Part shown: positions 22,802-30,105 of the stretch, in pieces
Layout of the letters: each line of letters starts with the position of its first letter
Numbering within the stretch: position 1 is the first letter of the stretch
Virus record (IMG/VR): IMGVR_UViG_3300035670_000138
Location: 1 to 64,000 of that record
DNA length: 64,000 bases
Source: a virus
Lineage: Duplodnaviria; Heunggongvirae; Uroviricota; Caudoviricetes
Strand: one strand, 5' to 3'
Made by a program: the position numbers and the translations under genes
Notes under the pieces: model-generated
Database searches by the model: none
What the model was told of the DNA's origin: nothing
Seen by the model: the letters and a program-made list of their open reading frames with translations, nothing else

Positions 22802-23377
22802 ATGAGTAATAAGCTAAACGATATAGTCGAACTCGCTCATGACTATCATATAAACTTATCCACTAAGACTACGTGGATTACTGGCGAAATTGATGAAGAA
22901 CAAGCCGATAGGTTAAGTAAGAACTTGTCAATTCTAGACAGTAATCAAAACAATAAGCCTATAACTATAATACTAGATTCGTCGGGTGGAGAAGTTAATC
23001 AGGGGCTTAGAATGTACAATCTTATATGTAATTGTACGAACGTGGTAAGGATTATTGTCGAGGGTAAGGCTGAATCTATGGCTAGTATTATACTACAAGC
23101 CGGAGATGAAAGGATTATGTTTGCAGACTCTCATTTAATGCTACATATAGGTACTGAAGCATTTGCCGAAGATCACCCTGAGAATGTTAAAAGATGGAAA
23201 GCTAAGGCAGAAATTGACACAAAAAGAACAGAAGACATATACTTAAGTCGGATTAAAGAAAAAAAGAAAAAATTTACAAGAAATCAGTTGAAAGAAATGT
23301 TAAACTTTGATACAATATTATCACCAAAGGAAGCAATGGAGCTTGGATTGGTAGATAGGATTGAAACAAATGTATAG
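22802..23377 (+). CDS. ClpP-family (S14) serine peptidase
   Basis: The segment ITIILDSSGGEVNQGLRMYN matches the ClpP oxyanion region. GKAESMAS carries the catalytic Ser and MLHIGT the His. Confidence 0.6.
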   Translation: MSNKLNDIVELAHDYHINLSTKTTWITGEIDEEQADRLSKNLSILDSNQNNKPITIILDSSGGEVNQGLRMYNLICNCTNVVRIIVEGKAESMASIILQAGDERIMFADSHLMLHIGTEAFAEDHPENVKRWKAKAEIDTKRTEDIYLSRIKEKKKKFTRNQLKEMLNFDTILSPKEAMELGLVDRIETNV

Positions 23378-26802: not shown

Positions 26803-26831
26803 TTGACAAATTTACAATTATAATATATACT
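26803..26831 (+). promoter_or_regulatory. sigma70-like promoter: TTGACA, 17-nt spacer, TATACT
   Basis: It has a perfect -35 and sits just ahead of SD aaggagg and the ATG at 26848. It shares ATTTACAATTA with the region upstream of the gene starting at 190. Confidence 0.45.
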
Positions 26832-26847
26832 AATTAAGGAGGTGTGT

Positions 26848-27087
26848 ATGTTACAAGTATTGATTGCATTGTGGATTGCTTTTTTAGTTATTTATCTAAT
26901 CAATAATTTAGTGATTAGTAAATACAAACAAGTTGAGGAAGATGAAGAATTAGAGGACATTATTGAGGATCAAGAATCATTAGAAAGACAGGCTAAGATT
27001 ATAGAGGAACAAGAAAAGAAATCCTCGTATTTTAGCAGATTAAGAAATAAGAAAAAAGTAGAGTCATTTAAAAAGGAGAAGAAATGA
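26848..27087 (+). CDS. small membrane protein (N-terminal TM, acidic coiled-coil tail), first gene of the SPFH cluster
   Basis: The segment LIALWIAFLVIYLINNLVI is hydrophobic. SD aaggagg precedes the ATG. Confidence 0.5.
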   Translation: MLQVLIALWIAFLVIYLINNLVISKYKQVEEDEELEDIIEDQESLERQAKIIEEQEKKSSYFSRLRNKKKVESFKKEKK

Positions 27088-28325
27088 GTTTAAAACAACA
27101 GTTTTTATTAGGAGTGGCAGTACTAGGTACAATTACAGTACTTGCACTATCGGGCAGCATTGTTGAAACAAACAATGAAGGTTACTATCAAATTAAACAA
27201 GCGTCGTTTACTGGAGACATGAGTGTTAGAAATACTCCGGGTATGTACTTCCAGAACTTCGGTAATATTTCTGATTACCAAATCTCAGACATGTACTATT
27301 TCGGTTCAAACGATAGCAGCGAACCTATCTTAGTAAGGTTTAACGACGGTTCAACAGCTAAGATTTCAGGTTCTATTAAGTTTAAACTGAGTCAAAAAGA
27401 AGAAGATCAACTTCTTTTACACAAAGATTTTAAGAACTATAACGCTGTAGTAAACGACTTAGTTAGACAGACGGTTGCCGAATCTCTAAAGCAAACAGCA
27501 TCTTTGATGAAAGCTGAAGAGACTTATTCTTCGAAAAGATCTGAGTTTGTATCACTATCTGAAGATCAAATCGCTAAGGGTATTTTCGCAACATCTGCTA
27601 AAGATATTGAAGTTGAAGATATCTCTGGTCAAAAGTTTATCCAAAGAGCAGTTGATGTTAAACTTGATGACAAAAACCAACCAGTTATTGAAAAGAACTC
27701 TCTGTTGAAGAGATACAATATCCAATTACTACAATTCGTAATTACCGATATTGACTTTGATGAAACTATCGATAAGTTAATTAACGAAAAGAAGAAGGCT
27801 GAGCAAGCTAAGGTTGTTGCTAAAGCTAAAGCTGAAGAAGCTAAGCAAGATGCGATTACAGCTAGAGAACAAGGTGCTGCAAGGATTGCTCAAGCTAAGG
27901 CTGATGAAGAAGTTGAGAAGATTAAAGAAGTAACTCAAGCTTTAAAAGCTAAAGAAGTTGCCGAGCTTGACGCTAAAAAACGTAAAGTTGTAGCAGAACT
28001 TGATGCTCAAAAAGAGTTCGAAGTTGCTAAACTAAACCGTCTTAAGGCTGAAGAAGAAGCTAACGCTAAACTTACTATTAAACAAGCTGAAGCTAAGGCT
28101 AACGAATTACTAGTTAAGGCAGGGTTAACTCCACTAGAAGCTGCTAAAATGGAAATGGAGACTAAAATTGGCATTGCTAGAGAGCTTTCTAATATTAAGT
28201 TACCAAGCACATTTATCGGAGCAGGTTCTGGAGCAGGTGGAGCAGCGTTAGATCCATTTACTGCTGTAGGGTTAGAATCGTTAATGAGAATTAATGAAAA
28301 AATGTCTGCAGGTAATAAAAAATAG
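27084..28325 (+). CDS. SPFH/band-7 (stomatin/HflKC/flotillin-like) membrane protein
   Basis: An N-terminal TM (LGVAVLGTITVLALSG) is followed by an SPFH-like core and a long A/K/E-rich coiled-coil (AKAKAEEAKQDAITAREQGAARIAQAKADEE...). Confidence 0.65.
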   Translation: MSLKQQFLLGVAVLGTITVLALSGSIVETNNEGYYQIKQASFTGDMSVRNTPGMYFQNFGNISDYQISDMYYFGSNDSSEPILVRFNDGSTAKISGSIKFKLSQKEEDQLLLHKDFKNYNAVVNDLVRQTVAESLKQTASLMKAEETYSSKRSEFVSLSEDQIAKGIFATSAKDIEVEDISGQKFIQRAVDVKLDDKNQPVIEKNSLLKRYNIQLLQFVITDIDFDETIDKLINEKKKAEQAKVVAKAKAEEAKQDAITAREQGAARIAQAKADEEVEKIKEVTQALKAKEVAELDAKKRKVVAELDAQKEFEVAKLNRLKAEEEANAKLTIKQAEAKANELLVKAGLTPLEAAKMEMETKIGIARELSNIKLPSTFIGAGSGAGGAALDPFTAVGLESLMRINEKMSAGNKK

Positions 28326-28326
28326 C

Positions 28327-28355
28327 TTGACTAAATTAAAAAAATAGAGTATTAT
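28327..28355 (+). promoter_or_regulatory. possible sigma70-like promoter: TTGACT, 17-nt spacer, TATTAT
   Basis: Good hexamers and spacing. It lies immediately upstream of a terminator-like hairpin, so its function is ambiguous. Confidence 0.3.
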
Positions 28356-28360
28356 GTAAG

Positions 28361-28385
28361 GGTGGAGAATAACTCCACCTTTTTT
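28361..28385 (+). terminator. intrinsic terminator: GGTGGAG-aataa-CTCCACC followed by TTTTTT
   Basis: It has a perfect 7-bp stem, a 5-nt loop and a 6-U tract. It sits between the SPFH gene and the NfeD-like gene. Confidence 0.6.
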
Positions 28386-28396
28386 AGGAGAAAAAA

Positions 28397-29206
28397 ATGA
28401 AATGGTTGTTATTGTTAATGTTGAGTATGACATATTCTCATGCTCTAGTTCTTGGAGAGAATAATACAGTATCTCTTAGGAACGAATATCGTTCTAATAC
28501 TGTATCAACGGTTATCCACAAGCTACAAAAAATTCACACTAATCTTCCAGAAGGTGCTGAAATTAACTTGTATTTAGACAGTCCGGGTGGATCGATTATT
28601 GCAGGTGAAGAATTAATCAAGTTTGTTAACTCTTTAAATCGTCCTGTGAACGTGATTTGCAACTTCTGTGCATCTATGGCTTTCCAAACCCTTCAAGGAA
28701 TTAACGGTAAAAGGTTAGTTACTAATATGGGTATTTTAATGTCACATAAGGCTTATGGAGGCTTTGACGGAGAATTTCCGGGGCAATTAGAAAACAGACT
28801 TAATTTCTGGTTAAAAAGGCTAAATAAGGTTGATGAAGCTGTTGTTAAGAGAACAAACGGAAAACAAACTTTAGAAACGTATAAAGAATTATACGAGAAT
28901 GAATATTGGTGTACAGATACTGATTGTATTAATGATGGATTTGCTGATGCAGTTGTTGACGTAACTTGTGATAAAACTCTTAACGGGATTGAAACACAGA
29001 TTGTCCAAGGATTCTTCGGTAATTTTGAGGTACATTTAAGTAAATGCCCTATAATCACTGGCGTAATAAAGTATAGATCTCTTGATAGTGACGGTGATCC
29101 TATTGGTCCATTTATTACAAATTCTGAAGACGATTTAATGGATCTATTACTGAAGGGCAAGTCTATCCAAGGTATTAATAGAATTAACTTAAACGATGTT
29201 AGATAA
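28397..29206 (+). CDS. NfeD-like / ClpP-class (S49/S14) secreted serine peptidase
   Basis: The signal peptide is MKWLLLLMLSMTYSHA. LYLDSPGGSIIAGEELIKF is a ClpP-like oxyanion segment, and CASMAFQ carries the catalytic Ser. The gene follows the SPFH gene, as in bacterial stomatin/NfeD operons. Confidence 0.55.
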   Translation: MKWLLLLMLSMTYSHALVLGENNTVSLRNEYRSNTVSTVIHKLQKIHTNLPEGAEINLYLDSPGGSIIAGEELIKFVNSLNRPVNVICNFCASMAFQTLQGINGKRLVTNMGILMSHKAYGGFDGEFPGQLENRLNFWLKRLNKVDEAVVKRTNGKQTLETYKELYENEYWCTDTDCINDGFADAVVDVTCDKTLNGIETQIVQGFFGNFEVHLSKCPIITGVIKYRSLDSDGDPIGPFITNSEDDLMDLLLKGKSIQGINRINLNDVR

Positions 29207-29558
29207 AAAATTAGATGAGTTACTAGATTTACTCCAAAAAGTTGAGGCTAAAGCTGAAGTTGAAAAAAGTGGATGTTCGTTCGAAAAGTTCGTATTGGAG
29301 TACGGGATACGTTCGGGATTAACTAGGGTCCCGAACTATCTCATTTATAGCTTGTATGATAGCAACTATAAAAATGCTTACGGAAAGAATCACTTTTTTA
29401 GATTAATGAGTTCGAGGTTTAAGTCTGTTAGAACAGGAAAACAACGAGCTTATTTACTTGACGGTTCATCTTTTGATTTATCTAGAGAAGGGAAATTAAA
29501 GGCTAAGCACTATGACAAAGAAAAAAGAATTGAAAAAAAGAGTAAGAAGGGAAGATAA
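29196..29558 (+). CDS. hypothetical basic protein (120 aa)
   Basis: ORF. Confidence 0.35.
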   Translation: MLDKKLDELLDLLQKVEAKAEVEKSGCSFEKFVLEYGIRSGLTRVPNYLIYSLYDSNYKNAYGKNHFFRLMSSRFKSVRTGKQRAYLLDGSSFDLSREGKLKAKHYDKEKRIEKKSKKGR

Positions 29559-30105
29559 GAAACACCCCTTTTTAGACAAGAGTTACAATTTGAAAAGCAG
29601 AAGAGATTACATTGACAATACTTATTACGTAAATGGCGTTAAAGACGTTAAAGGTAAGACGGTAATGAGAGAGTTAACCGAGGAAGAAAAAGACTTCCTA
29701 AACAAGTTTAATGCAGAATATTACTGCGCTTCTTTCGATAAGGACGACAATAATAATCTACATAAATATAAAGCAAGTAAAGACCAATTAAACGAAGTTA
29801 GAGAATATATTAAAGAACTTAAACAACACATAAAAACTTTAGAAAAAACAAATGCAAGCAAGGAAAAGCTAAGATCTTTATATAGAGAGGTTGAAGCTAC
29901 AAGGGAACAACTGTTAGAGTTAAATCCTAAATTAAAATGTACTGATGCTAATAATCTAAGAAATAATTGTTTACTGAATATAGGTAAGGCTAGAAATGAG
30001 ATTGAGTTTATACCTTGGGACGATCTAGATCAAGATGCTATAGGTACACCAGATGTTGAATTATTATATTTATTAAATGATATTGATTCGAAGATTAAGA
30101 AATAA
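29512..30105 (+). CDS. hypothetical basic coiled-coil protein (197 aa); last + strand gene
   Basis: ORF. Its 3' end overlaps the convergent - strand gene by 11 nt. Confidence 0.4.
   Translation: MTKKKELKKRVRREDKKHPFLDKSYNLKSRRDYIDNTYYVNGVKDVKGKTVMRELTEEEKDFLNKFNAEYYCASFDKDDNNNLHKYKASKDQLNEVREYIKELKQHIKTLEKTNASKEKLRSLYREVEATREQLLELNPKLKCTDANNLRNNCLLNIGKARNEIEFIPWDDLDQDAIGTPDVELLYLLNDIDSKIKK

What the first reader, a model, noticed from the sequence alone, without database searches (positions are those of the whole stretch)
26803..29206. Phage-encoded SPFH (band-7) protein with an NfeD-like ClpP-class protease and a small membrane partner
The cluster reads: promoter, small TM protein (26848..27087), SPFH protein of 413 aa with an N-terminal TM and a long coiled-coil (27084..28325), hairpin, then a secreted ClpP/NfeD-like serine peptidase (28397..29206). 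Stomatin paired with NfeD is a bacterial membrane module. SPFH proteins such as HflK/C regulate the FtsH protease, which controls phage lysis-lysogeny factors in E. coli. A phage-borne copy could redirect host membrane proteolysis, scaffold a membrane microdomain for replication or assembly, or act in superinfection exclusion. The terminator-like hairpin at 28361..28385 between the two genes, preceded by promoter-like hexamers, suggests differential expression of the two partners.
Basis: partly seen in the sequence, partly recalled or inferred. Interest (0 to 1): 0.6.

Follow-up and report, generated by a model that had tools for sequence, protein, structure and literature searches.

The report
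Phage SPFH cassette beside exported ClpP-like peptidase
An uncultured phage carries a membrane-scaffold (SPFH) gene with a small membrane partner next to a secreted ClpP-like protease, but comparison with about 170 related loci shows these are two separate, mostly independent phage gene families and not the bacterial stomatin–NfeD pair.

Summary
All three ORFs, both promoter-like sites and the hairpin are at the stated coordinates. The 413-aa protein is a genuine SPFH protein by Pfam and by fold. The 269-aa protein has a genuine ClpP fold with Ser93 and His117 conserved.

None of 88 family loci outside the window's own clade has an SPFH gene within the fetched flanks (up to 10 kb). None of about 75 SPFH-family loci outside that clade has this protease. 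Inside the clade the protease is fixed and has its own promoter. SPFH occupies the upstream slot in 3 of 10 lineages, from two unrelated subfamilies.

The consistent SPFH partner is the small bitopic membrane protein, which is often translationally coupled to it. Functions remain inferred.

The parts
26803..26831 (+). Sigma-70-like promoter (TTGACA-17-TATACT) in the 47-nt gap after the 75-aa gene; likely start of the SPFH cassette transcript
   Evidence: 11 of 12 consensus matches. Sites with at least 11 of 12 matches are enriched in the window, 10 against 3.2 +/- 2.0. Function is not shown. It is not conserved in L111, where the partner gene overlaps the upstream gene.
26848..27087 (+). Small bitopic membrane protein (79 aa): N-terminal TM helix and a highly charged tail predicted to be cytoplasmic; translationally coupled to the SPFH gene (ATGA overlap)
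   Evidence: ORF and ribosome-binding site. It is homologous to the L111 partner (32% identity, E=8e-9). The same architecture lies directly upstream of SPFH-A in 27 of 57 non-redundant loci and in about 9 lineages of the first set. 24 of 33 partners form one BLAST cluster, and K+R counts are 0.67 before the TM against 3.52 after it. No Pfam, PHROG, NCBIfam or PADLOC family matches.
27084..28325 (+). SPFH/Band-7 scaffold protein (413 aa, 'SPFH-A', PHROG 11908): N-terminal TM, SPFH core, a helix of about 120 residues and a conserved C-terminal motif; predicted N-in/C-out, so the SPFH domain faces the periplasm
   Evidence: Pfam Band_7 E=3e-11. phrog_11908 E=1.5e-51 over the full length. AlphaFold2 model pLDDT 77.5. 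Foldseek top hits are HflK/C, erlin, prohibitin, flotillin, stomatin and QmcA-YbbJ. At least 958 homologues, with 59% mean column identity in alignment A2. Positive-inside statistics: K+R 2.03 before the TM against 0.60 after it, n=119.
28327..28355 (+). Sigma-70-like promoter (TTGACT-17-TATTAT) dedicated to the protease unit
   Evidence: 10 of 12 matches. A promoter recurs at the same position in relatives: TTGACA-17-TATCAT in L107 and TTGACA-17-TATAGT in L106, a perfect TTGACA-17-TATAAT in L111, and TTGCAA-17-TACAAT in L110.
28358..28385 (+). Stem-loop (10-bp stem) plus U-run: intrinsic-terminator-like end of the SPFH cassette; it overlaps the predicted 5' end of the protease mRNA
   Evidence: RNAfold -15.8 kcal/mol, z=-2.94. 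Stem-loops can be read at the same position in L107, L106 and L111. It was not flagged by the consensus terminator scan.
28397..29206 (+). Exported ClpP-fold serine peptidase (269 aa): signal peptide of about residues 1-16, catalytic Ser93 (28673..28675), His117 (28745..28747) and Glu169 (28901..28903), a C-terminal beta extension, and Cys191-Cys217 and Cys172-Cys177 as likely disulfides
29196..29558 (+). 120-aa basic protein of unknown function; its start overlaps the protease stop; part of the conserved protease unit in this clade
   Evidence: ORF overlap. Homologues lie directly after the protease in L109 (72% identity), L106 and L107, and ORFs of the same size and position are present in L110 and L190. 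No family match.
29512..30105 (+). 197-aa basic coiled-coil protein of unknown function; last gene of the + strand block; conserved with the protease in the clade
   Evidence: Homologues in L109 (66% identity), L106 and L107. Only weak coiled-coil-type hits: phrog_73 scaffold E=0.002 and Phage_GPO E=0.03, far below cutoff.

Best explanation
The region holds two separate functional units, not one stomatin-NfeD operon.

Unit 1 (26803..28385) is a self-contained accessory cassette. It comprises a sigma-70-like promoter, a small bitopic membrane protein translationally coupled to an SPFH scaffold protein, and a terminator-like hairpin. The SPFH protein belongs to a very widespread and unusually well conserved phage family (PHROG 11908; examples are crAss001 gp91 and proteins of Vibrio and Aeromonas phages). 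By analogy with solved SPFH assemblies, it most likely oligomerises into a cage or ring on the host inner membrane. The positive-inside rule predicts HflK/C-like topology, with the SPFH domain in the periplasm and the partner's charged tail in the cytoplasm. The inferred role is to corral or shield an inner-membrane client during infection. Host FtsH is the best single candidate, at roughly 0.2-0.25 probability.

Unit 2 (28327..30105) has its own promoter, which recurs at the same position in relatives. It encodes a Sec-exported, disulfide-stabilised ClpP-fold serine peptidase with a Ser93-His117-Glu169 triad, followed by two overlapping small basic proteins. The mature protein lacks the first 20 or so residues of ClpP, which in ClpP form the axial gating loops that contact the ATPase. 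There is no ATP in the periplasm. It is therefore inferred to act as an ATP-independent peptidase on peptides or unfolded polypeptides in the cell envelope, for example to remodel envelope proteins or to exclude superinfecting phages.

What is shown: gene structures, folds, conserved residues, export signals, synteny and co-occurrence statistics. What is inferred: oligomeric state, topology, substrates and biological role.
For: - Independence of the two families. No SPFH gene was found in the flanks (up to 10 kb) of 88 protease-family loci outside the window's clade. This used an SPFH-A HMM, 11 diverse SPFH queries over 97 loci and 1.57 Mb, and a Pfam scan of 36 ORFs with SPFH-like architecture. 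None of 16 plus 57 non-redundant SPFH-A loci carries a member of the exported family. No contig name is shared between the sets.
- Within the window's clade the protease, the 120-aa and 197-aa genes, the convergent 117-aa gene and the lysozyme-domain gene are fixed. The slot upstream of the protease varies: SPFH-A plus partner in the window and L111, an unrelated Band_7 in L107, and nothing in L106, L109, L110, L113, L114, L190 and L191.
- A promoter recurs upstream of the protease in L106, L107, L110 and L111, with a stem-loop in L106, L107 and L111.
- The small partner recurs with SPFH-A.
- Export: 75 of 79 members have an N-terminal hydrophobic segment. C191 and C217 are invariant, C172 and C177 co-vary 52:27, and 69 of 79 proteins have an even number of cysteines.
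- The protease is not a head protease. In 42-53 other loci it lies among DNA polymerase exonuclease and SbcC-like genes. A better head-protease-type paralogue exists at 22802..23377 (phrog_94 E=4e-31).
- SPFH fold and architecture.
Against: - In this clade, every insertion seen between the backbone and the protease promoter is an SPFH gene, from two subfamilies with no detectable sequence similarity. That is unexpected for a random accessory hotspot and hints at some functional link.
- The SPFH domain (by the positive-inside rule) and the protease (by its signal peptide) would share the periplasm.
- Cytoplasmic ClpP-like genes also lie within 4 kb of SPFH-A in two further lineages.
- Topology, export, oligomerisation and activity are all predictions.
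- The terminator was not detected by the consensus scan.
- The host is unknown; if it has a single membrane, 'periplasm' does not apply.
Confidence: 0.6

Rival explanations
1. Functional scaffold-plus-protease pair. In this phage clade the exported ClpP-like peptidase works together with an SPFH assembly, in the manner of stomatin/STOPP or HflKC/FtsH. The SPFH cage would confine the protease or present substrates to it at the periplasmic face of the inner membrane. The pairing would be facultative and would have arisen by convergence, not by descent from NfeD.
For: SPFH genes of two unrelated subfamilies occupy the same slot directly upstream of the protease in 3 of 10 clade lineages, and no other kind of insertion is seen there. 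SPFH-A is predicted to face the periplasm and the protease carries a signal peptide, so they would share a compartment. There are precedents for SPFH-protease links: PH1511/PH1510 (PMC4208085), HflKC-FtsH and QmcA-YbbJ, which appear among the fold matches.
Against: Seven of 10 clade lineages and all 88 other protease loci lack SPFH. About 75 SPFH-A loci outside the clade lack this protease. The two genes are separated by a terminator-like hairpin and a dedicated promoter. The L107 SPFH has Arg-Arg immediately after its TM, which predicts a cytoplasmic orientation, the opposite side of the membrane from an exported protease. No NfeD-type interaction domain is present.
Confidence: 0.2
2. The 269-aa ClpP-like protein is the phage's prohead (head maturation) protease, and the 197-aa coiled-coil protein downstream is the scaffold. 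The SPFH gene would then be an unrelated neighbour.
For: The best PHROG matches are head maturation proteases (phrog_94 E=3.5e-13). NCBIfam Clp_rel_HeadMat gives E=6e-12. The 197-aa protein has weak scaffold-like hits: phrog_73 E=0.002 and Phage_GPO E=0.03. The gene lies near the boundary with the structural module.
Against: The family-wide signal peptide and disulfide-type cysteines point to export. Scores are far below curated cutoffs: 45.8 bits against 120. The gene is on the early/replication strand. In 42-53 other loci it sits among replication and recombination genes, and in L008 it heads the operon divergent from the terminase and portal genes, on the opposite strand. A cytoplasmic paralogue at 22802..23377 matches phrog_94 much better, at E=4e-31. 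The scaffold-like hits are of the low-complexity coiled-coil type.
Confidence: 0.04
3. The SPFH cassette acts in lysis timing or in membrane integrity, not on a protease. It would stabilise the energised inner membrane or regulate a holin, as suggested by crAss001, where gp91 (SPFH) is followed by a small 3-TM protein and a peptidoglycan hydrolase.
For: The crAss001 gene order is gp92 (small TM), gp91 (SPFH), gp90 (108 aa, 3 predicted TM helices), gp89 (peptidoglycan hydrolase). From general knowledge, bacterial SPFH proteins are linked to membrane-stress systems; PMC8581546 links one to the phage-shock protein.
Against: No lysozyme-like or other lysis gene recurs within 4 kb of SPFH-A in 75 non-redundant loci. 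Only crAss001 itself hits gp89, and the window's only lysozyme-domain hit is the 977-aa gene on the opposite strand. The window has no lysis gene in the cassette.
Confidence: 0.12

Closest known systems
Phage SPFH/Band-7 proteins: PHROG 11908; Bacteroides phage crAss001 gp91; Vibrio phage CHOED_059; Aeromonas phage 1233 SPFH protein; Band_7 ORFs noted in T4-like and Vi01-like phages
   Same: Same family by profile (phrog_11908 E=1.5e-51 over the full length). Identity to the cultured-phage proteins is 26-32% over 74-85% of the length. The architecture is the same: N-terminal TM, SPFH core, long helix. crAss001 also has a small TM ORF (gp92) directly upstream.
   Different: No function is known for any of them; they appear only as annotations (PMC1524935, PMC3220722). 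The cultured examples have no exported ClpP-like neighbour. I did not compare the Band_7 proteins of the T4-like and Vi01-like phages with this family.
HflK/HflC-FtsH complex of E. coli (SPFH3)
   Same: Best structural match (7vhq, E=1.4e-9). The predicted topology is the same type II arrangement, with an N-terminal TM and the SPFH domain facing the periplasm. Both have a long helix suited to forming a cage wall.
   Different: No NCBIfam HflK or HflC model hits at E<=0.1. There is a single SPFH gene and not a K/C pair. The partner is a 79-aa bitopic protein. No link to FtsH has been tested.
Stomatin-STOPP/NfeD pairs (PH1511/PH1510; QmcA-YbbJ; FloA-NfeD1b)
   Same: An SPFH gene lies adjacent to a ClpP-fold serine peptidase gene, and a small membrane protein is encoded next to the SPFH gene.
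ClpP (MEROPS S14), the cytoplasmic ATP-dependent Clp protease core
   Different: Identity is only about 13-26%, and the score is far below the ClpP equivalog cutoff, 49.5 bits against 308.6. The protein has a signal peptide and lacks the first 20 or so ClpP residues (alignment starts at query residue 23-25 against ClpP residue 28-29). Glu replaces the catalytic Asp. It adds a C-terminal beta extension with an invariant Cys pair. No ATPase partner is possible outside the cytoplasm.
SppA/SohB (MEROPS S49): ClpP-fold peptidases acting on the periplasmic side
   Different: S49 enzymes use a Ser-Lys dyad and are membrane-anchored, tandem or larger proteins. The SppA_dom model hits only weakly: E=0.008, 15.8 bits against a cutoff of 155.
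Phage ClpP-related head maturation proteases (NF045542, phrog_94)
   Same: ClpP-fold phage proteins, and the best PHROG category hit.
   Different: Head proteases are cytoplasmic and lie in the head gene module. This protein has an export signal, lies in the early/replication block, and scores below the family cutoff. The window's 191-aa paralogue fits that family much better.

Membership tests
NfeD / STOPP, long form (NfeD1b) | N-terminal ClpP-fold serine protease domain | tested here: met
NfeD / STOPP, long form (NfeD1b) | Catalytic Ser-Lys dyad (Ser97/Lys138 in PH1510; PMC4208085) | tested here: not met
   Ser93 and His117 are invariant and align with the ClpP Ser and His. Position 169 is always acidic (77 Glu, 2 Asp). 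The adjacent Lys118 varies (61 K, 16 R, 2 H).
NfeD / STOPP, long form (NfeD1b) | C-terminal NfeD-specific OB-fold domain (five-stranded beta barrel; Pfam NfeD) | tested here: not met
NfeD / STOPP, long form (NfeD1b) | Multi-pass membrane region between the protease and C-terminal domains; length of about 460 aa | tested here: not met
   The protein is 269 aa. The only hydrophobic segment is the N-terminal signal-like stretch at residues 3-12.
NfeD / STOPP, long form (NfeD1b) | Conserved operon with an SPFH1/SPFH5 gene | tested here: not met
   0 of 88 family loci outside the clade and 3 of 10 clade lineages have an SPFH neighbour. A promoter and a terminator-like hairpin lie between the two genes.
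ClpP (S14) orthologue | ClpP fold with the Ser-His-Asp triad | tested here: inconclusive
   The fold, Ser and His are met. The third residue is Glu in 77 of 79 members.
ClpP (S14) orthologue | Score above the curated equivalog cutoff (TIGR00493); cytoplasmic location with N-terminal axial loops for AAA+ docking | tested here: not met
   49.5 bits against a cutoff of 308.6. A signal peptide replaces the first 20 or so ClpP residues.
Phage ClpP-related head maturation protease (NF045542 / phrog_94) | Profile score above cutoff | tested here: not met
   45.8 bits against a cutoff of 120. phrog_94 gives E=3.5e-13 here, against 4.3e-31 for the window's other ClpP-like gene.
Phage ClpP-related head maturation protease (NF045542 / phrog_94) | Position in the head module (portal / protease / scaffold / capsid) and cytoplasmic location | tested here: not met
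   It lies on the early-gene strand. In 42-53 other loci it sits between DNA polymerase exonuclease and SbcC-like genes. A signal peptide is present in 75 of 79 members.
SPFH / Band 7 superfamily | Band_7 domain above the Pfam gathering score | tested here: met
   44.1 bits against a cutoff of 23.6, E=3e-11.
SPFH / Band 7 superfamily | N-terminal membrane anchor, alpha/beta SPFH core and long coiled-coil helix; structural similarity to SPFH cage subunits | tested here: met
   The model has H3-26, a beta/alpha core at 27-225 and H227-346. Foldseek hits with probability 1.00 include HflK/C, erlin, prohibitin, flotillin, stomatin and QmcA.
SPFH / Band 7 superfamily | Assembly into a large membrane-bound ring or cage | not testable with these tools
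   Inferred only by analogy with the solved complexes matched.
HflK/HflC (SPFH3) | Match to the HflK or HflC family models; paired K and C paralogues | tested here: not met
   No NCBIfam hit at E<=0.1. There is a single SPFH gene in the cassette.
HflK/HflC (SPFH3) | Type II topology with the SPFH domain in the periplasm | tested here: inconclusive
   The positive-inside rule favours N-in/C-out in 86-97% of 119 family members. This is a prediction only.
HflK/HflC (SPFH3) | Binds and modulates FtsH | not testable with these tools
   No computational test was available.
PHROG 11908 (phage SPFH family, function unknown) | Full-length profile match | tested here: met
   E=1.5e-51; residues 7-391 match profile positions 10-410 of 430.

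The most novel reading that the evidence does not exclude
The 269-aa protein represents a virus-restricted family of Sec-exported, disulfide-stabilised ClpP-fold peptidases, in effect a 'periplasmic ClpP' that works without any AAA+ partner. In this clade it would have been repeatedly joined to SPFH scaffolds of two unrelated subfamilies. That would make this a phage-side, convergent re-invention of the scaffold-plus-protease logic of stomatin/STOPP and HflKC/FtsH, used to remodel the host envelope or to exclude other phages.
Probability: 0.18. Interest if true: 0.7.

Novelty: new variant of a known kind. Interest (0 to 1): 0.5.

Why it matters
**SPFH proteins in phages.** Phage-encoded SPFH proteins have been annotated for 20 years without any known function. 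This analysis shows that one such family is very widespread, strongly conserved, and usually travels with a previously unrecognised small bitopic partner. That defines a minimal two-gene module that could be tested in culturable systems such as crAss001 and the Vibrio and Aeromonas phages.

**An exported ClpP-fold peptidase.** ClpP-fold peptidases with a Ser-His triad are classically cytoplasmic and depend on an ATPase. A large, virus-only family that is exported and carries disulfide-type cysteine pairs would be an unusual use of this fold. It would also be a new class of phage effector acting on the host cell envelope. None of its members is in a cultured phage.

**Annotation practice.** The case is a caution against inferring a functional operon from one adjacency. 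The stomatin-NfeD reading fails every membership test except the shared ClpP fold.

Tried and rejected
- **Near-identical DNA in known phages:** none found.
- **NfeD membership:** rejected.
- **Head maturation protease:** considered because of the PHROG and NCBIfam names. Rejected on the signal peptide, the gene context and the existence of a better paralogue.
- **Four-cysteine metal site as an alternative to disulfides:** rejected. C172 and C177 are present together or absent together (52 against 27) while C191 and C217 are invariant.
- **Lysis-cassette link for SPFH-A, suggested by crAss001 gp89-gp91:** no recurrence in 75 loci.
- **Anti-phage defence families (PADLOC):** no hits for the three proteins.
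- **Best cultured-phage match to the protease (Vibrio phage pv27):** an ordinary cytoplasmic ClpP homologue.
- **Convergent ClpP-like genes near SPFH-A in the L123 lineage:** they have no signal peptide and are relatives of the window's 191-aa paralogue, not of the exported family.
- **First SPFH locus scan:** crippled by a low-complexity coiled-coil pattern, giving only 16 loci. It was repeated with the N-terminal domain only, giving 69 loci.
- **Word-based homologue search for the 79-aa partner:** found only the protein itself. Its homology was shown instead by synteny-guided BLAST.
- **Major capsid or portal in the window:** no Pfam hits for the structural proteins, so the head module could not be mapped.
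- **Literature searches:** no functional study was found of phage SPFH proteins or of exported phage ClpP-like proteases.

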